A stretch of 10,213 nt of DNA from a virus (Duplodnaviria; Heunggongvirae; Uroviricota; Caudoviricetes). The notes beneath the pieces were generated by a model. It made no database searches. It saw nothing but the letters and a program-made list of their open reading frames with translations, and had not been told where the DNA came from. Positions 2,749 through 8,135 of this stretch are shown here, piece after piece; position 1 is the stretch's first letter; each line of letters begins with the position of its first letter. Location of the stretch: the IMG/VR virus record IMGVR_UViG_2700988907_000001; one strand, written 5' to 3'. The position numbers and the translations under genes are program-made.

Positions 2749-2985
2749 TTGATACATATTAAAGACACTTACAGCAATCTTATTAATTCAATTTTACGGC
2801 TATTTAAAATGATTATGTGTCTTGTTTATCTTATACAAAAGTCTCTTACAGCAAACTTTATTAAACATTTTTAAAAGATATAATACTATGTTGAGACTTG
2901 TTTATATTTTGAAAAGGACGTACAGCAAATTATTATTAAAAAAACATGGGAACGTTTTTCAAATTGTCCTTTGATACATATTAAA
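2749..2985 (+). repeat. Perfect 15-bp direct repeat TTGATACATATTAAA (2749-2763 and 2971-2985) bracketing the array
   Basis: Read directly; the two copies are 222 bp apart. Confidence 0.9.
2762..2972 (+). ncRNA. Tandem array of three structured ~60-nt units (period 74-77 nt) with invariant TACAGCAA; putative small RNAs
   Basis: Unit 1 AAGACAC(2762-2768)/GTGTCTT(2817-2823); unit 2 AAGTCTC(2839-2845)/GAGACTT(2893-2899); unit 3 AAAGGAC(2913-2919)/GTCCTTT(2966-2972). TACAGCAA at 2770, 2847 and 2921, each followed within 2-4 nt by TTATTAA. Confidence 0.8.
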
Positions 2986-3070: not shown

Positions 3071-3637
3071 ATGAAAGAAATTTGGAAAGATATTCCTAAT
3101 TATGAAGGATATTATCAAATTAGTAGTTTAGGAAGAGTTAAAAGTTTAGAAAGACATATTGTTTATAAAGATGGCAGAGAAAGAACTTATCCTAGTGTAA
3201 TAATTTCTAATAGAGTCGGTACCAATGGTATGGAATTATGTACTTTGACTAAAAACAATAGAAAAAAGAATATAGAAATTCATAGAATGGTTTCTATTGT
3301 TTTTATAGGAGATTGTCCTAAAGGGTATGATATATGTCATATTGATGGTAATTGCTTAAATAACAATATTAATAATTTAAAATATGACACTCGTTCAGAA
3401 AATAGAATAGATAATTATAGATATGGCGGAAAAGCAAGTACAGGAAAATTAAATATAAAACAAGTATTAGAAATAAGACATAAATATAAACATGAAAAAT
3501 ATACTTATAAACAATTATCTGATATTTATGATATTGGGATAACGCAAATAGGTAGAATAATAAGAAGAGAAGCATATACTTGGTTAAATGATAATGGAGA
3601 AATAGAAAAATCTTTAACAGAAATTAAATCTTGTTAA
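3071..3637 (+). CDS. Free-standing NUMOD4-HNH homing endonuclease with C-terminal HTH
   Basis: NUMOD4 start EIWKDIPNYEGYYQISSLGRVKS, HNH core IHRMV...ICHIDGNCLNNNINNL, C-terminal GKLNIKQVLEIR...YKQLSDIYDIGITQIGRIIR. Confidence 0.9.
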   Translation: MKEIWKDIPNYEGYYQISSLGRVKSLERHIVYKDGRERTYPSVIISNRVGTNGMELCTLTKNNRKKNIEIHRMVSIVFIGDCPKGYDICHIDGNCLNNNINNLKYDTRSENRIDNYRYGGKASTGKLNIKQVLEIRHKYKHEKYTYKQLSDIYDIGITQIGRIIRREAYTWLNDNGEIEKSLTEIKSC

Positions 3638-3656: not shown

Positions 3657-4835
3657 ATGAATGAATACATTAAAAAAACAGAAGAGAGCATTACAGCTTA
3701 TTCTATCAGATTATATAAAAATAGAGCAACTTACGGTTTAACATTTCAAGAAATTGGAGATTTATTAAACGAAGTTTCTGGAGAGAATCATAGCGAAGCA
3801 AAGTGGCGAAGACCTATTCAAAGCTACTTACAAATTCAAGAATACTTAGAACAAGAGAACCCAGCAGGATTAACTTCCGACCAATTAGAAGAAATCCAAT
3901 CAAAGAAATTGGAACTTGAAAAAGAAAAAATAAAAATGAGAGACCAAAAACGTGAAATGCGTAACACTCTTAGACAAATGGCTCGTTTAGAACATTTAGT
4001 AGATTATGTTGAATCTGCAACAGAAACATTAGAACCATTTGAGTTACCTGTAGAAAGCAAAGATAAAACTAATGATAGTGAAGCTATGGTAGTTATTTCC
4101 GATTGGCATTTAGGAATGAATATAGATAGCCAATTTAATAGATTTAACGAAGATGTAGCACGATACAGAATCACTAAGTTAAAGCAGAAAACATATGAAA
4201 AAGTAATTAAAGACGACATACAGAGATTGCATATAGCTAACTTAGGTGATTTAATTCATGGTGCTATACATGTGTCAACTAGAATACAAAGTGAAGAAGA
4301 TGTTATTCAGCAAGTTATAAGAGCTTCTGAATATCTGAAAGACTTTATTGGAGATTTCTTGAAATTAGGCATTGATATTAAGTATTATAATGTTATAGGA
4401 AATCATGGTCGTGTATCTCCTAACAAACAAGATGTGGCAGGAATAGAAGAAAACTTTGAAAAACTTATTCTAACTATATTAGATACGGCATTTAGTTCTC
4501 AATTAAATTATACGTCTTTTGATTCTAAAGACGGTCTTATTGAAACTACAATAAAAGGACGTAAAGGTGTTCTAGTACACGGAGATTATGATAAAGGCGC
4601 AAGTATTGTTGCTAAATTACCACAACTATTAGGATATGTTCCAGATTTTGTTATAGGTGGACATTTTCATAGAGAATCAATTATGGACTATGGTAAGACG
4701 ACATGTATTACTAATGGTTCTTTATGTGGTAGTGATGATTATGCAATACAAATGAGATTAGGTGGAAAACCTAGCCAAAAATACTTAACTTTCACTGATG
4801 AAGGTATTGAAGAAAATAATACGATTTATTTATAA
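3657..4835 (+). CDS. Calcineurin-like metallophosphoesterase with N-terminal HTH-like and coiled-coil region
   Basis: Five family motifs in order: SDWHLG, LGDLIHG, IGNHG, VHGD, GHFH. N-terminus LTFQEIGDLLN is followed by an E/K/R-rich helix. RBS AAGGAG at 3640-3645. Confidence 0.88.
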   Translation: MNEYIKKTEESITAYSIRLYKNRATYGLTFQEIGDLLNEVSGENHSEAKWRRPIQSYLQIQEYLEQENPAGLTSDQLEEIQSKKLELEKEKIKMRDQKREMRNTLRQMARLEHLVDYVESATETLEPFELPVESKDKTNDSEAMVVISDWHLGMNIDSQFNRFNEDVARYRITKLKQKTYEKVIKDDIQRLHIANLGDLIHGAIHVSTRIQSEEDVIQQVIRASEYLKDFIGDFLKLGIDIKYYNVIGNHGRVSPNKQDVAGIEENFEKLILTILDTAFSSQLNYTSFDSKDGLIETTIKGRKGVLVHGDYDKGASIVAKLPQLLGYVPDFVIGGHFHRESIMDYGKTTCITNGSLCGSDDYAIQMRLGGKPSQKYLTFTDEGIEENNTIYL

Positions 4836-4847
4836 AAATGACCTTAC

Positions 4848-4881
4848 GGGACAACTCATTTGAGAATGTCCCTTTTACTTT
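4848..4881 (+). terminator. Likely intrinsic terminator after the phosphoesterase gene
   Basis: GGGACA(4848-4853)/TGTCCC(4867-4872) with inner CTC/GAG pairing, followed by TTTTACTTT. Confidence 0.6.
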
Positions 4882-4983
4882 GTTAAAATTACTTTTACTT
4901 ATATTGGGATAATTAACGTGATTATCTTTGCGTCTAAAAGCCAATAAGACAAAATGGCGACTATATAGATAAGAGTATTTTTA

Positions 4984-5054
4984 AGAGGGTAAAACCTCTA
5001 TTTCCTTATTCATATTCATTCATAATAATTTCTCCGAGAGGGCTTTGCCCTCTT
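4984..5054 (+). ncRNA. Candidate small antisense-type RNA element between two hairpins
   Basis: AGAGG/CCTCT hairpin (4984-4999), then a segment complementary to the phosphoesterase RBS and start, then the GC-rich hairpin GAGAGGGC-TTT-GCCCTCTT (5036-5054). Confidence 0.4.
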
Positions 5055-5063
5055 GATGATTAA

Positions 5064-5137
5064 CAGAATGTAGTTCAATTTGGTAGAATACCACATTTGG
5101 GATGTGGTGGTTGTTGGTTCAAATCCAGCCATTCTGA
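5064..5137 (+). tRNA. tRNA-Pro (anticodon UGG), CCA not encoded
   Basis: Acceptor CAGAATG/CATTCTG, D arm GTTC-AATTTGGTA-GAAT, anticodon arm CCACA-TTTGGGA-TGTGG (TGG at 5098-5100), T arm GTTGG-TTCAAAT-CCAGC. C1-G72 and A73 fit Pro identity. Confidence 0.95.
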
Positions 5138-5164
5138 TATTGATTTTATTGTTTTACAGAAACA

Positions 5165-5605
5165 GAAACAGTCGATTGGTTTTGTCATTTACCCAAGTGT
5201 TATCATAAGACAAAAATGTCAACTGTCTTTTTAGAGTAGTCACTGTTTCACAGTATAAAATGATAACTTTTTTAGATGGCTACATATACATAATAAAATG
5301 TGGATTTCATGTCCACCTATCCTAACTCTGAGACTGTGAGATAGTAACTTAAACTAGCTATTTAAGTGAATGGAGAGATAGGTTAAAAACTAGATTCTCA
5401 ATGTGGCTTATTGAGTGCTTTGTTGCTATAGAAAAATAGTAATGAAAGAACAAAGGGTAGTTTTGAATGGTTTGAGCCCTTTATACATATATGTCTGCTC
5501 TGCGGAGTATTGAGAGTGAAATCTTTATGGAAGAGGAAACTCGAACTCACTCTAGTTCTTTTAAGTAGAACAAAGGCATTGGTTTGAATCCAATGTAAGA
5601 GTGAG
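5165..5605 (+). ncRNA. Large structured ncRNA candidate (GOLLD/ROOL-type giant phage RNA or a new class)
   Basis: About 440 nt with no ORF in the track, directly after a tRNA, with many helices: GAAACAGT/ACTGTTTC, TTTTGTC/GACAAAA, GTTATCAT/ATGATAAC, TCACAGT/ACTGTGA, ACCTATC/GATAGGT, ACTTAAA/TTTAAGT, CTCAAT/ATTGAG, CTTTGTT/AACAAAG, a GAG-GAAA-CTC tetraloop and CTCACTCT/AGAGTGAG. Family not verified. Confidence 0.65.
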
Positions 5606-5616
5606 ATTACATAATT

Positions 5617-5645
5617 TTGACTTTTATTAATATGTATGTTATTAT
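5617..5645 (+). promoter_or_regulatory. Sigma-A-type promoter with extended -10, upstream of the GIY-YIG gene and terL
   Basis: TTGACT (5617-5622), 17-nt spacer, TG at 5637-5638, TATTAT (5640-5645). Confidence 0.65.
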
Positions 5646-5665
5646 TTAATAAAGGAGTAATTAAT

Positions 5666-6421
5666 ATGTACGGTTATATATACAAAACAACAAATTTATT
5701 AAATAAGAAAATATATATAGGACAAAGAAAGTCAAAAGAATTTATTAAGAGTTATTATGGAAGTGGCACTTTAATTAAAAAAGCTATATCTAAATATGGT
5801 AAAGAAAATTTTTCAGTAGAATTAATAGATTTTGCTATGTCGGCAGATGAGTTAGATGAAAAAGAGATATGGTATATAAAAGAGCTTAAATCAAAACATA
5901 CATATGGTAATTATAACTTAGCCGATGGTGGTTTTTTAGCTAGATATGATTTTAATAATCAACCAGAATGGAAGAAAGAAGAAACAAGACAGAAACTTTC
6001 TTTAGTAAATAAAGGTAGAAAAAGAACAGAAGAAACGAAAAAACGAATTTCAGATGTTCAAAAAGGAAGAAAACAAAGTGAAGAAACGAGAATAAAGAAA
6101 TCTATTTCTACAAAAGAAAGTTTAAAAAATAACAAAGAGCGTTTACAAAAACACACTGATACATTAAATAAACATAGATACAATAAAAGTCAAATAGTAG
6201 ATGTTTATAATGGTGTGAATTTAATTTATTCTTTTAAATCTTACAAAGAGTGTTGGAATTATTTTAGTAAACTTGGATTAGGAAGAAAACCTTTAACTAA
6301 AAACTTATTAGAAGGTCAACCTATTTGCCCTAGCGAAAGACCTGGTAATATGAGCCGTAAAGTATATAACGCTAGAGTAAGATTTAAAGATTATAAGTTT
6401 ATATATAGAGAAAGAGGGTAA
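5666..6421 (+). CDS. Free-standing GIY-YIG homing endonuclease with NUMOD3 repeats; likely start ATG 5666
   Basis: MYGYIYKTTNLLNKKIYIGQ, YYGSG, catalytic-type E (ELDEKEIWYI) and YN; NUMOD3-like KRTEETKKRIS and KQSEETRIKKS. RBS AAAGGAG at 5651-5657 supports 5666 over 5636. Confidence 0.9.
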   Translation: MYGYIYKTTNLLNKKIYIGQRKSKEFIKSYYGSGTLIKKAISKYGKENFSVELIDFAMSADELDEKEIWYIKELKSKHTYGNYNLADGGFLARYDFNNQPEWKKEETRQKLSLVNKGRKRTEETKKRISDVQKGRKQSEETRIKKSISTKESLKNNKERLQKHTDTLNKHRYNKSQIVDVYNGVNLIYSFKSYKECWNYFSKLGLGRKPLTKNLLEGQPICPSERPGNMSRKVYNARVRFKDYKFIYRERG

Positions 6422-6425
6422 TGAT

Positions 6426-8135
6426 TTGATTGATGAAAAAATAGTTAATCATCCTTCTTATCAATACGCCTTATCTGTTGTGAATGAAGATGTTATATCT
6501 GGAAGATATATAAAAAAAGAATGTTCTAAGTTTTTACATGAATTAGAAAATGACGAAAGTAGATATTTCTTTGATGTAGATATGTTAGAAACATTAGATA
6601 GTTTAACTAAATTGATAAATATGGCAGATGGCATGAAAGAAGGAGTAAGTGCCTATGAAGCACTAGGTGGTTTTCAGTGGTATTTTTTAGCAAATGTATT
6701 GTGTTGGAAATACAAAGAAAACCCTAAAAGACGTAAATATGAAAAGAGCTTATTGCTTATTGGAAGAAAAAACGGTAAAACTTTTCTTACTGGTTTGATA
6801 TTCTTAATATTTATGATGATTGAACCAGAATATTCTAAATTCTTCAGTGTATCTGCTACTAAAGATTTGTCTAGTTTGATTAAAGAGCAAATGGAGATGT
6901 TATTAGACAAATCTCCTGTGTTATCAAATCATTTTAAATGGTTACGTTCAGAAGTTAGATTCACAGCTAAGAAATCTTCTATGAAACCTTTAGCTTATTC
7001 TTTAGATAAGTTAGACGGACGTAAAGCAGCGGTATGGTTGTCTGATGAAACGGGAGCTTTACCTTCACGTTATCCAATAGATTCAATGCGGTCAAGCCAA
7101 ATGAACCAATTAAACAAAACTGGTATTATAATATCTACTGCATATCAAACAACAGACAATCCAATGACAGAAGAAGTGGATTATGCTGAAAAAGTTATGG
7201 ATGGTATTATTCAGGACGACAAAACTTTTGCTTTGTTGTACAAACCAGATAATCCTAAGGAATGGATGTCAGAAGAAGCTCTATATCAAGCTAATCCTAT
7301 CTTATATGATGTCCCAGAAAACTATGAGATGTTAGACGATGAAAGAACGATGGCAACAGAAATGCCGTCTAAAAAGTCTAACTTTTTAACTAAACATTTA
7401 AACATATTTATTGACGGAGATATTGAAGAATCATTTGTTACTATAGACGATTTAAGACAAGGTAAAATAGCAGAAGAAGATTTTGATTGGGACGGTAGAG
7501 AAGTTTATTTAGGTATCGACTTAGCAGAAACTGTCGATAATACTGCTGTTTCAATGGTTTATTATGATAATGATGAAGATAAATTTTATACAAAATGTTG
7601 GTCATTTATTCCACAAGAGAAAGCGACAGAAAAATCAAAAAGAGAACGTATTAATTATTTCTTAATGCGTGACAAAGGTTGGGCTTTTTTATGTGGAGAT
7701 AGAGTAATAAGTCAACGTTTTGTTGAAGATTACGTATTAGGAATAGAAAAGAAATATAATGTTATAGTAAAAGGTATCGGATATGATAGACGTAATGCAA
7801 TATCATCTGTAAACAGATTTATAGATGAAGGAGATTACGAGTGTGTAGAAGTAAGACAAAATAGTTCGTCACTTGGTCCAACATTTAAAATGATGAGAGA
7901 TTATATTATAGATGGCAATTTCCTTTACCAAGAAAATGAACTTTTAGAAAATAACTATAAAAACGCACGAATAACATACGATACTACAATGAATATATAT
8001 GTCAATAAAAAGAAAAGTGCTGGTAAAATTGACGGTGTTTATGCCACAGCAGATGCAATGTATCTATGGAAACAAGACATAGATGACGGATTATTGACAA
8101 GTAGTTTTGAAGATAGAGGATTATTTATTTTGTAA
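6426..8135 (+). CDS. terL: Phage terminase large subunit
   Basis: Walker A IGRKNGKT, Walker B WLSDE, nuclease GIDLAETVD and GKIDG. The N-terminus looks intact. TTG start just after the GIY-YIG stop; lies upstream of the portal gene. Confidence 0.95.
   Translation: MIDEKIVNHPSYQYALSVVNEDVISGRYIKKECSKFLHELENDESRYFFDVDMLETLDSLTKLINMADGMKEGVSAYEALGGFQWYFLANVLCWKYKENPKRRKYEKSLLLIGRKNGKTFLTGLIFLIFMMIEPEYSKFFSVSATKDLSSLIKEQMEMLLDKSPVLSNHFKWLRSEVRFTAKKSSMKPLAYSLDKLDGRKAAVWLSDETGALPSRYPIDSMRSSQMNQLNKTGIIISTAYQTTDNPMTEEVDYAEKVMDGIIQDDKTFALLYKPDNPKEWMSEEALYQANPILYDVPENYEMLDDERTMATEMPSKKSNFLTKHLNIFIDGDIEESFVTIDDLRQGKIAEEDFDWDGREVYLGIDLAETVDNTAVSMVYYDNDEDKFYTKCWSFIPQEKATEKSKRERINYFLMRDKGWAFLCGDRVISQRFVEDYVLGIEKKYNVIVKGIGYDRRNAISSVNRFIDEGDYECVEVRQNSSSLGPTFKMMRDYIIDGNFLYQENELLENNYKNARITYDTTMNIYVNKKKSAGKIDGVYATADAMYLWKQDIDDGLLTSSFEDRGLFIL

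What the first reader, a model, noticed from the sequence alone, without database searches (positions are those of the whole stretch)
5165..5605. ~440-nt ornate non-coding RNA candidate with pseudoknots between tRNA-Pro and the GIY-YIG gene
Seen: dense long-range complementarity. The loop of hairpin TTTTGTC/GACAAAA (5180-5215) contains GTTATCAT (5199-5206), which pairs perfectly with ATGATAAC (5260-5267), giving a pseudoknot. TCACAGT (5248-5254) pairs with ACTGTGA (5333-5339), which lies inside the ACCTATC/GATAGGT domain (5315-5383). A GNRA tetraloop lies at 5533-5542. Established: GOLLD and ROOL are giant structured RNAs of unknown function found in Bacillota phages next to tRNA genes. Inference: this is a short GOLLD/ROOL variant or a new large RNA; I cannot assign the family by eye.
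Basis: partly seen in the sequence, partly recalled or inferred. Interest (0 to 1): 0.75.

Follow-up and report, generated by a model that had tools for sequence, protein, structure and literature searches.

The report
Phage small-RNA beads, not one giant RNA
The supposed 440-base "ornate RNA" is a patchwork of short, separately inherited RNA modules in the tRNA island of a Staphylococcus phage, including a new 63-base motif and a tRNA relic without its anticodon arm, and the modules are separated by UACAUA, the sequence that the host RNA-cutting toxin MazF cleaves.

Summary
The window is the packaging region of a Staphylococcus Sextaecvirus (6ec-like siphophage). The interval 5165-5605 is nevertheless not one conserved RNA.

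Rfam gives only tRNA-Pro: no GOLLD, ROOL or group I intron match even at E<=10. Relatives show a mosaic:
- 5139-5221 carries one arm of the proposed pseudoknot. It is an insertion present in only 4 phages and has no folding signal (z +0.14).
- 5222-5481 is confined to S. epidermidis phages.
- 5490-5607 is missing from 6ec and about 17 others.

Real structured parts do exist:
- A 63-nt three-helix motif (5482-5544) has 5 compensatory pairs and is shared with unrelated Mammaliicoccus myophages.
- A tRNA-derived element without an anticodon arm (5546-5605) has a DH5 homologue that still scores as tRNA.
- The 5315/5383 stem has weak support.

The modules are separated by TACATA boxes (5281, 5287, 5484, 5608), which match the MazF hexamer U^ACAUA. 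These boxes are 8-11 times enriched on the sense strand of five such islands. They usually follow a stem, and late ORFs avoid them (1 seen against 11.2 expected). I infer that a precursor is cut into stem-capped small RNAs; this is untested. Earlier notes of this scan recorded the tRNA-like element here and in another genome.

The parts
5064..5137 (+). tRNA-Pro (UGG), the first unit of the island; no encoded CCA
   Evidence: ARAGORN; Rfam tRNA 65.9 bits
5139..5221 (+). Lineage-specific ~83-nt insertion.
   Evidence: Absent from 6ec, Ph15, BE02, BE22, PG-2021_46, CF9 and Ph10; present only in PG-2021_5/74/88. Fold z +0.14. No homology to the TACAGCAA units at 2760-2974.
5222..5280 (+). Module 1: short conserved segment with weak hairpins
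   Evidence: Present in the S. epidermidis clade; 5221-5267 is also in PT94 and PMBT8, directly after a hairpin plus ATACATA. Fold z -1.05. The 6ec-type U-to-C change breaks the local ACUGU/ACAGU stem.
5281..5292 (+). Tandem TACATA boxes (UACAUA x2), predicted single-stranded
   Evidence: unpaired probability 0.83 and 0.68, the 95th and 90th percentile
5293..5483 (+). Module 2, made of hairpin 5302-5318, closing stem 5315-5321/5377-5383 around hairpin 5347-5367, hairpins 5397-5415 and 5418-5455, and stem 5452-5457/5477-5482
   Evidence: Found only in S. epidermidis phages. Fold z -2.37. One compensatory pair (5321:5377) with a wobble intermediate, two wobble-preserving changes (5347, 5438) and two changes that break terminal pairs. 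5401-5452 is deleted in PG-2021_46.
5482..5544 (+). 63-nt conserved motif: TACATA box (5484-5489) inside the palindrome ACATATATGT, then P1 5496-5500/5505-5509 (UGCG loop), P2 5514-5517/5539-5542 and P3 5522-5526/5530-5534
   Evidence: Conserved in Sextaecvirus lineages and in the Sciuriunavirus myophages SscM-1 and MSShimriz1. 98.6% of cells paired, 5 pairs changed on both sides, 0 of 500 shuffles reach the score, slid controls near zero. One copy per genome.
5546..5605 (+). tRNA-derived element without an anticodon arm: acceptor 5546-5553/5598-5605, U8-A9-like UA 5553-5554, D-like arm 5555-5558/5568-5571, T arm 5578-5582/5590-5594 with loop UUUGAAU
   Evidence: The MFE equals the centroid and z is -3.3 for 5490-5608. 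The DH5 homologue scores Rfam tRNA at 37.9 bits. Compensatory changes occur in the acceptor (PT1-4), D stem (F1/DH5) and T stem (F1, with wobble in PG-2021_46 and DH5). Ph15 and BE22 carry stem-breaking SNPs.
5608..5613 (+). TACATA box after the tRNA-like element. In BE02, PT1-4, F1 and DH5 it is followed directly by the terL Shine-Dalgarno sequence.
5617..6421 (+). Free-standing GIY-YIG homing endonuclease gene (5636-6421) with its own sigma-70-like promoter (5617-5645), inserted between the last box and terL
   Evidence: PHROG 314 at 2e-42; promoter scan; the insertion point is seen against BE02, PT1-4 and F1

Best explanation
The interval 5165-5605 is the distal part of a variable tRNA/small-RNA island. 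The island lies between the metallophosphatase gene and terL in a Staphylococcus Sextaecvirus.

It is a string of short, independently gained and lost structured modules, which I call beads. Reading from tRNA-Pro they are:
- a rare insertion (5139-5221);
- module 1 (5222-5280);
- module 2 (5293-5483);
- module 3 (5490-5607), which joins a 63-nt three-helix motif to a tRNA relic that kept its acceptor, D and T arms but lost the anticodon arm.

The beads are separated by single-stranded UACAUA boxes. These match the exact hexamer cleaved by MazF of Bacillota, including S. aureus MazF.

Inferred mechanism: the island is transcribed together with tRNA-Pro. The precursor is then cut at the boxes by host MazF, or by another nuclease with the same specificity. 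This releases RNAs of about 60-200 nt, each ending in a protective stem. The last cut would place the 5' end of the downstream mRNA just before its ribosome-binding site. In relatives that mRNA is terL; here it is the inserted endonuclease gene.

Shown: the mosaic, the covarying helices, the tRNA ancestry, and the statistics of the boxes. Inferred: transcription as one precursor, cleavage at the boxes, and the enzyme. What the 63-nt motif and the tRNA relic do beyond capping and processing remains open.
For: Mosaic:
- blastn and alignments show that 5143-5221 is absent from most relatives.
- 5222-5491 occurs only in S. epidermidis phages, and 5482-5615 has a different, wider distribution.
- 6ec joins TATACATAT directly to the terL SD.
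- The locus holds 0-6 tRNAs in relatives.
- In DH5 a TACATA box separates the 63-nt motif from the tRNA relic, so they are separate beads there.

Structure:
- The three helices of the 63-nt motif covary across two phage families.
- The tRNA relic has 3 compensatory events, and its DH5 homologue passes the Rfam tRNA threshold.

Boxes:
- In the window, TACATA on the sense strand occurs 9 times in 1465 intergenic nt (0.96 expected) and once in 8748 coding nt. The reverse complement occurs 0 times in intergenic sequence.
- In five islands the counts against expectation are 14 vs 1.7, 10 vs 0.9, 9 vs 0.8, 5 vs 0.6 and 4 vs 0.5. The reverse complement occurs 3, 0, 0, 1 and 0 times.
- 69% of 42 boxes have a helix ending within 4 nt upstream, against 24% of control positions (Mann-Whitney p 5e-7).
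- Three of the window's four boxes are in the top 10% for predicted unpairedness.
- In BE02 late ORFs the sense strand holds TACATA once against 11.2 +/- 2.8, and TACAT 14 times against 43.2 +/- 5.4, under synonymous shuffling. The reverse complements are at expectation.
- All 10 sense-strand ATACATA in the 29-kb late block are intergenic, and most lie 17-26 nt before a start codon.

Enzyme:
- MazF of B. subtilis, Listeria and S. aureus cleaves U^ACAUA (bioRxiv 10.64898/2026.08.06.743204).
- S. aureus MazF also cuts the UACAU pentad (PMC7470975, listed). This fits the avoidance of the pentad, not just the hexamer, in ORFs.

Single precursor: the SscM-1 island has two canonical sigma-70 promoters, near 125 and 970, and 12 boxes downstream of them.
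Against: - No transcript ends are known. The only RNA-library data are assembled contigs, which cannot show cleavage, and one of them runs across box 5484.
- The nearest held bacterial assembly that carries this phage DNA (G001) and four genomes of its genus gave no PemK/MazF hit. Its taxon is not disclosed and it may not be the host. Still, MazF is not shown for this phage's own host.
- A promoter reading of the box is not excluded, because T4-type late promoters are also short -10-only boxes close to start codons.
- Box 5608 is only at the median for unpairedness.
- The tRNA relic carries stem-breaking SNPs in Ph15 and BE22 and is deleted in many phages, so some beads may be decaying rather than functional.
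- Covariation rests on few independent lineages: about 5 for the tRNA relic, and 2 haplotypes for module 2.
Confidence: 0.6

Rival explanations
1. One ornate ~440-nt non-coding RNA, either a short GOLLD/ROOL variant or a new large RNA, folded through long-range helices and pseudoknots.
For: The whole-region fold has z -3.1. 7-mer inverted repeats are about twice the shuffle mean. It lies next to a tRNA gene in a Bacillota phage, as GOLLD and ROOL often do. Kayvirus phages make abundant ~550-nt RNAs beside their tRNA genes (PMC7698491).
Against: There is no GOLLD, ROOL or group I hit at E<=10. One pseudoknot arm lies in an insertion that most relatives lack, and that insertion has no fold signal. 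Module 3 is absent from 6ec and about 17 other phages, and PG-2021_46 deletes 52 nt of module 2. None of the inter-module pairings covaries. The fold signal is local to two modules. 8-mer complementarity is at chance.
Confidence: 0.04
2. Decaying tRNA array. The interval is debris of former tRNA genes and spacers with no function of its own, and the structured parts are fossils.
For: The locus holds 0-6 tRNAs in relatives. The tRNA relic forms a decay series: DH5 is still detectable by Rfam, F1 keeps a vestigial arm, the S. epidermidis clade and PT1-4 have lost the arm, and 6ec has lost the whole element. Ph15 and BE22 carry stem-breaking SNPs. Indels are frequent.
Against: Every form lacks a usable anticodon loop, yet the acceptor, D and T stems keep pairing through 3 compensatory changes across lineages. 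The 63-nt motif is not tRNA-like, covaries, and is shared with unrelated myophages. The strand-specific box statistics show selection at the RNA or signal level.
Confidence: 0.18
3. The TACATA boxes are -10-only promoters for a phage-directed RNA polymerase holoenzyme (T4 or Kayvirus late-promoter style). Each bead would then be its own small transcription unit, and the stems would act as terminators.
For: Boxes precede most late genes at 17-26 nt from the start codon. Kayvirus late promoters are -10-only boxes (TGTTATATTA) without a -35 (PMC7698491). Promoter-like words are also expected to be avoided on the sense strand of ORFs. No enrichment of sigma-70 promoters is seen in the late block.
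Against: In 6ec, F1 and DH5 the SD starts 0-2 nt after the box, so a start site 6-7 nt downstream would remove it. The stems before the boxes lack U tracts, and a true tRNA (tRNA-Asn) also precedes a box. ORFs avoid the UACAU pentad and not only the longer box, which fits MazF better. The identity with the host nuclease's hexamer would be a coincidence. There would be 10-14 promoters in about 2 kb.
Confidence: 0.15
4. The modules are Y-RNA-like partner RNAs of the neighbouring Ro60-like DUF2828/DUF7788 protein (1234-2742).
For: The protein is encoded 2.4 kb upstream. Module 2 occurs only in phages that also carry that gene. Bacterial Y RNAs contain tRNA-like domains (from memory: Chen et al. 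2014, PMC4201824, cited in earlier notes, not read here).
Against: The 'handle' that earlier notes of this scan report for DUF2828 partners (a closing stem followed by ACAGCAA) occurs exactly at 2771, 2848 and 2922, directly after the gene, and nowhere in 5138-5635. The tRNA relic and the 63-nt motif occur in F1, PT1-4 and DH5, which lack the gene, and are absent from 6ec, which has it. The co-occurrence of module 2 with the gene is confounded by phylogeny.
Confidence: 0.05

Closest known systems
Kayvirus 'lncRNA1/lncRNA2' regions beside phage tRNA genes (vB_SauM-515A1; PMC7698491)
   Same: Gene-free, structured, co-oriented RNA regions that abut tRNA genes in staphylococcal phages. The function is unknown. 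Their positional counterpart in Sciuriunavirus SscM-1 shares the 63-nt motif and the TACATA punctuation with this window.
   Different: Those are single abundant transcripts of about 525-570 nt known from RNA-seq. Here the stretch is a mosaic of 60-190-nt modules with no expression data. Apart from the 63-nt motif, no sequence similarity was found.
GOLLD and ROOL large RNAs (Rfam; accessions RF02032 and RF03087 as given in earlier notes)
   Same: Bacillota phage context and proximity to tRNA genes.
   Different: No covariance-model match at E<=10. The available space is under 500 nt, and it is not inherited as one unit.
tRNA (RF00005), tRNA pseudogenes and tRNA-like structures
   Same: 5546-5605 keeps a 7-8-bp acceptor stem, UA at positions 8-9, a 4-bp D stem and a 5-bp T stem with a 7-nt T-like loop. 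Its DH5 homologue scores 37.9 bits as tRNA.
   Different: There is no anticodon arm, and the D loop lacks GG. C56 is U, or U55 is G in F1 and DH5. The window copy and the F1 copy get no tRNA hit at E<=10. ARAGORN calls none of them.
MazF (EndoA/NdoA) U^ACAUA cleavage sites in Bacillota (bioRxiv 10.64898/2026.08.06.743204; PMC7470975)
   Same: The box is the exact hexamer. It is single-stranded, strand-specific, and avoided inside ORFs.
   Different: The known sites lie in host mRNAs. No one has reported phage intergenic or ncRNA islands punctuated by the site (57 papers contain 'UACAUA' and none of the 20 listed concerns phage RNA islands). Cleavage here is untested.
Phage T4 tRNA cluster with co-processed stable RNAs (species 1 and 2) and T7 RNase III sites between cistrons (from memory, not checked here)
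   Same: Small stable RNAs are co-transcribed with phage tRNAs and released by processing. Processing sites next to stems lie between late cistrons.
   Different: The nucleases and signals differ (RNase P, RNase E and RNase III). There is no UACAUA box in those systems.

Membership tests
GOLLD RNA (Rfam) | Match to the family covariance model | tested here: not met
   cmscan at the gathering threshold on the whole window, and at E<=10 with permissive filters on 4830-5700, gave no GOLLD hit.
ROOL RNA (Rfam) | Match to the family covariance model; about 500-600 nt inherited as one unit | tested here: not met
   No hit. The interval is a mosaic with segment-wise presence and absence.
Group I intron | Covariance-model match and interruption of a host gene | tested here: not met
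   No hit. The stretch is intergenic, and terL is intact at 569 aa.
tRNA (RF00005) | Cloverleaf with acceptor, D, anticodon and T arms that scores above 29 bits | tested here: not met
   Window 5546-5605 gets no tRNA hit at E<=10 and its anticodon arm is absent. The homologous DH5 element scores 37.9 bits with a truncated arm. The window copy is therefore tRNA-derived, not a tRNA.
tRNA (RF00005) | Conserved pairing of the acceptor, D and T stems | tested here: met
   Pairing is kept through A:U to G:C in the acceptor, U:A to C:G in the D stem, and U:A to U.G to C:G in the T stem across 5 lineages.
DUF2828 (Ro60-like) 'handle' RNAs as described in earlier notes of this scan | Closing stem of about 7 bp followed within 1-3 nt by (A)CAGCAA | tested here: not met
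   Exact ACAGCAA occurs at 2771, 2848 and 2922 (and at 2341 inside the gene) but not in 5138-5635. Only ACAGAAA occurs, at 5156 and 5162 inside the rare insertion, and that insertion does not align with the units.
MazF U^ACAUA substrate | Exact UACAUA hexamer in single-stranded RNA | tested here: met
   Boxes lie at 5281, 5287, 5484 and 5608. Unpaired probabilities are 0.83, 0.68, 0.78 and 0.37.
MazF U^ACAUA substrate | Actual cleavage by MazF in vivo or in vitro | not testable with these tools
   Only assembled contigs of public runs were available.
MazF U^ACAUA substrate | Host encodes a MazF/PemK toxin | tested here: inconclusive
   A mazEF homologue is reported for S. epidermidis, by the title and abstract of PMC8792614 as listed; I did not read the paper. 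However, G001, the nearest held assembly that carries this phage DNA, and 4 congeners gave no PF02452 hit. 11 of 14 other genera of its family did.

The most novel reading that the evidence does not exclude
Staphylococcal and mammaliicoccal phages of two unrelated families build their tRNA/ncRNA islands and late operons as 'beads on a string', punctuated by the host MazF hexamer UACAUA, while purging that word from their ORFs. On this reading the phage co-opts a host toxin-antitoxin nuclease as its RNA-processing enzyme. Cleavage would release stem-capped small RNAs, including a new 63-nt motif and an armless tRNA mimic. It would also give late mRNAs 5' ends next to their ribosome-binding sites. 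Alternatively, the islands could serve as decoy substrates that soak up MazF.
Probability: 0.35. Interest if true: 0.8.

Novelty: new variant of a known kind. Interest (0 to 1): 0.5.

Why it matters
As filed, a new giant RNA or a GOLLD/ROOL relative, the finding does not hold, and that removes a false lead.

What remains is useful in three ways.

1. The 63-nt three-helix RNA motif has no Rfam family. It is shared by unrelated phages of the same hosts, always as the last RNA element before the first late protein gene.

2. The tRNA relic has lost decoding ability in every lineage but keeps its acceptor, D and T helices. It is a natural minimal tRNA mimic placed directly before terL.

3. The host MazF hexamer is strongly avoided in phage ORFs yet placed after almost every intergenic stem. 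If cleavage is confirmed, this would make the physiological role of the chromosomal MazEF system during phage infection directly testable. It would also explain how gene-free RNA islands beside phage tRNA genes are matured.

Tried and rejected
- Rfam at E<=10 on the region, on SscM-1 1-2700 and on the F1 and PT1-4 loci gave only tRNAs and chance hits.
- Pattern scans for more homologues added no diversity. The long motif pattern found 0 stretches in IMG/VR. A 17-mer found only SscM-1. The metagenome scan found 2 near-identical copies.
- My genome contigs pattern was too loose.
- Public runs were available only as Logan contigs. RNA-library contigs cover 5333-5561 (X15) and 4918-5189 (X17). They cannot show transcription, ends or strand, and DNA carry-over is possible. 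I draw nothing from the uncovered parts.
- The idea that the 5139-5221 insertion is a fourth TACAGCAA 'handle' unit was rejected, because it does not align with the units.
- The small ORFs 5398-5550(-), 5097-5234 and 5080-5208 have no PHROG match.
- The sigma-70 promoter scan of the BE02 late block was uninformative: 77 hits against 84.9 in shuffles.
- I considered hammerhead-like CUGA motifs in module 2 and a put-like antiterminator reading of the 63-nt motif. No test was available for either, so I claim neither.
- The window's own assembly is not held.

Full report
**Context.** The window is the packaging end of a Staphylococcus Sextaecvirus, a 6ec-like siphophage of about 90 kb. The gene order is as follows:
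- HNH endonuclease (161-607) and small terminase (626-1135);
- a DUF2828/DUF7788 'RNA-binding' protein (1234-2742);
- a second HNH endonuclease (3071-3637) and a YonJ-like metallophosphatase (3657-4835);
- tRNA-Pro (5064-5137);
- a gene-free stretch (5138-5635);
- a GIY-YIG homing endonuclease (5636-6421);
- large terminase (6426-8135), portal and protease.

blastn against GenBank phages finds 42 records, nearly all Sextaecvirus.

**Checking the observation.** The stretch is non-coding. Its three small ORFs have no family match, and relatives differ by 1-2-nt indels throughout.

The statistical case for 'dense long-range complementarity' is weak. Perfect 8-mer inverted pairs number 3 against 3.0 in dinucleotide shuffles. 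7-mers number 21 against 10.8 +/- 4.6. The global fold has z -3.1, but folding the pieces separately places the signal in 5490-5608 (z -3.3, MFE equal to the centroid) and 5296-5484 (z -2.4). The segment 5138-5224, which carries the first hairpin and one pseudoknot arm, has z +0.14.

**It is not a member of a known large-RNA family.** cmscan of the whole window at gathering thresholds finds only tRNA-Pro. A permissive search of 4830-5700 at E<=10 adds only chance hits such as snoRNAs and miRNAs at E 1.7-7.8. There is no GOLLD, ROOL or group I intron match.

**It is not one unit.** The locus between the metallophosphatase gene and terL is a variable tRNA island. Relatives carry 0 to 6 tRNAs there. 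Pairwise blastn and alignments split the candidate into segments with different histories:
- 5139-5221 is an insertion found only here and in PG-2021_5/74/88.
- 5222-5280 occurs in the S. epidermidis clade and partly in PT94 and PMBT8.
- 5293-5483 occurs only in the S. epidermidis clade, and 52 nt of it are deleted in PG-2021_46.
- 5490-5607 is present in some S. epidermidis phages and in PT1-4, F1 and the DH5 clade. It is absent from 6ec and about 17 others, where TATACATAT runs straight into the terL ribosome-binding site.

The proposed 5199/5260 pseudoknot therefore has one arm in DNA that most relatives lack. TCACAGT is conserved in PT94 and PMBT8, which lack its proposed partner. The GNRA hairpin at 5533-5542 competes with two helices that covary.

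**What is real, part 1: the 63-nt motif (5482-5544).** Ten sequences share it. They include the Mammaliicoccus myophages SscM-1 and MSShimriz1 (Herelleviridae), which are unrelated to Sextaecvirus.

The three helices are P1 5496-5500/5505-5509 with a 4-nt loop, P2 5514-5517/5539-5542, and P3 5522-5526/5530-5534. They are paired in 98.6% of cells. Five pairs change on both sides. No shuffle out of 500 reaches the covariation score, and sliding the partners abolishes the signal.

The motif occurs once per genome. In both phage families it is the last RNA element before a stem, a TACATA box and the first late protein gene: terL in one family, and a small ORF followed by an amidase gene in the other.

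**What is real, part 2: the tRNA relic (5546-5605).** It has the following parts:
- an acceptor stem (5546-5553/5598-5605);
- UA at the position of nucleotides 8-9;
- a 4-bp D-like stem whose loop lacks GG;
- four linker bases where the anticodon arm should be;
- a T arm with the loop UUUGAAU.

The homologous element of DH5 sits in the same place before terL and scores 37.9 bits with the Rfam tRNA model. It has a 3-bp, 9-nt-loop remnant of the anticodon arm. F1 has a different vestigial arm.

No lineage has a usable anticodon loop. The other three helices are nevertheless kept through compensatory change:
- A:U to G:C in the acceptor stem (PT1-4);
- U:A to C:G in the D stem (F1 and DH5);
- U:A to U.G to C:G in the T stem.

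Against strict constraint, Ph15 and BE22 carry stem-breaking SNPs, and many phages have lost the element altogether. I confirm the description and add its ancestry.

**What is real, part 3: module 2.** One pair of the ACCTATC/GATAGGT stem covaries (C:G to U:A, with a U.G intermediate in PG-2021_46). Two further changes keep pairing through wobble. Only two haplotypes exist, so this is weak support.

**The punctuation.** TACATA follows each module, at 5281, 5287, 5484 and 5608.

In the window:
- The word occurs 9 times in 1465 intergenic bases on the sense strand, against 0.96 expected.
- It occurs once in 8748 coding bases.
- The reverse complement occurs 0 times in intergenic sequence.

In the complete BE02 genome:
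- All ten sense-strand ATACATA of the 29-kb late block are intergenic.
- They typically lie right after a hairpin and 17-26 nt before a start codon.

Under synonymous-codon shuffling of the BE02 late ORFs:
- TACATA is seen once, against 11.2 +/- 2.8 expected.
- TACAT is seen 14 times, against 43.2 +/- 5.4 expected.
- The reverse complements sit at expectation.

In five gene-free islands (this window, SA2, F1, DH5 and SscM-1):
- The word is 8-11 times enriched on the sense strand only.
- 69% of the 42 boxes have a helix ending within 4 nt upstream, against 24% of control positions (p 5e-7).
- Three of the window's four boxes are in the top 10% for predicted unpairedness.

UACAUA is the strict recognition hexamer (U^ACAUA) of MazF from B. 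subtilis, Listeria and S. aureus. S. aureus MazF also cuts the UACAU pentad (PMC7470975, listed).

**Mechanism proposed.** This part is inferred. The island is transcribed with tRNA-Pro as a precursor and cut at the single-stranded boxes. Each upstream piece is left with a 3' stem, and the downstream mRNA gets a 5' end close to its ribosome-binding site. From general knowledge of Gram-positive mRNA decay, a ribosome-binding site near the 5' end is a stabilising arrangement.

Three points favour an RNA-level signal over a -10 promoter:
- In 6ec, F1 and DH5 the ribosome-binding site starts 0-2 nt after the box.
- A genuine tRNA also precedes a box.
- ORFs avoid the pentad, not just the longer box.

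The promoter reading is not excluded.

**Caveats:**
- No end-mapping data exist.
- One RNA-library contig spans box 5484.
- The nearest held assembly with this phage DNA shows no PemK-family gene. Its identity is undisclosed. For S. epidermidis, the known host of the relatives, a mazEF homologue is reported in the title and abstract of PMC8792614 as listed, which I did not read.

**Relation to the neighbouring Ro60-like gene.** The exact ACAGCAA signature that earlier notes of this scan tie to DUF2828 partners occurs three times at 2771-2928 and not in the candidate. The conserved modules occur in phages without that gene and are missing from 6ec, which has it. A Y-RNA role for this interval is therefore unlikely.

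**Verdict.** The interpretation as a single ornate RNA, or as a GOLLD/ROOL variant, is not supported. The stretch is a modular small-RNA island that contains one new covarying motif and one tRNA-derived mimic. It is punctuated by a word identical to the host MazF site. That last point is the most interesting lead, and it can be tested at the bench.

Noticed in passing
window 2760-2975: Three stem-closed units, each with TACAGCAA just after the 5' arm, directly follow the DUF2828/DUF7788 gene. Exact ACAGCAA lies at 2771, 2848 and 2922. The third unit's closing stem is followed by G-ATACATA (2975), the same box as in the tRNA island.
   Followed up: partly
L136+L137 (BE02 genome), late genes 66.5-94.3 kb and 0-8.1 kb: Late ORFs strongly avoid UACAU(A) on the sense strand: TACATA 1 against 11.2 and TACAT 14 against 43.2 under synonymous shuffling. 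The reverse complement is at expectation. Early genes are also depleted (39 against 59.9 by a Markov estimate).
   Followed up: yes
L137 about 11300-12000 (BE02 59.3-60.0 kb, minus strand): A roughly 700-nt low-complexity tract made almost entirely of ACATA/ATACATA-like repeats lies in the gene-free gap between two gene blocks. It could be an origin or a recombination hot spot. It contains more than 20 copies of the same word as the boxes.
   Followed up: no
L008 2080-2135 against L014 2150-2200, and L008 1900-1965 against L014 2270-2370: The DH5-clade siphophage island shares whole RNA modules, stem plus TATACATA, with the gene-free island of Sciuriunavirus myophages. This suggests that RNA beads are exchanged between unrelated phages of Mammaliicoccus.
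   Followed up: partly
window 4964-5055: Two hairpins upstream of tRNA-Pro (4984-4999 and 5037-5055) are 88-90% conserved in PT1-4 and SA2, upstream of tRNA-Asn. In PT94 and PMBT8 a box follows them directly, with no tRNA. There is only a chance-level csRNA hit (20.6 bits, E 5.2).
   Followed up: partly
window 5616-6425: The GIY-YIG homing endonuclease gene is inserted exactly between the last TACATA box and the terL ribosome-binding site, as seen against BE02, PT1-4 and F1. It brings its own sigma-70-like promoter (5617-5645). terL is uninterrupted here but split by endonuclease inserts in 6ec, BE02, SA2, F1 and TPWB06.
   Followed up: partly
window 5559: This phage has one extra U in the D-like loop of the tRNA relic compared with all ten relatives. 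This allows a 5-bp stem with a 7-nt loop (UUUAAGU) that superficially looks like an anticodon loop.
   Followed up: partly
G001 contig C45 9761-10335 (L146): A held bacterial assembly carries the 6ec-type form of the locus, with neither the insertion nor module 3. That genome and 4 congeners show no PemK/MazF hit, while most sister genera do.
   Followed up: partly
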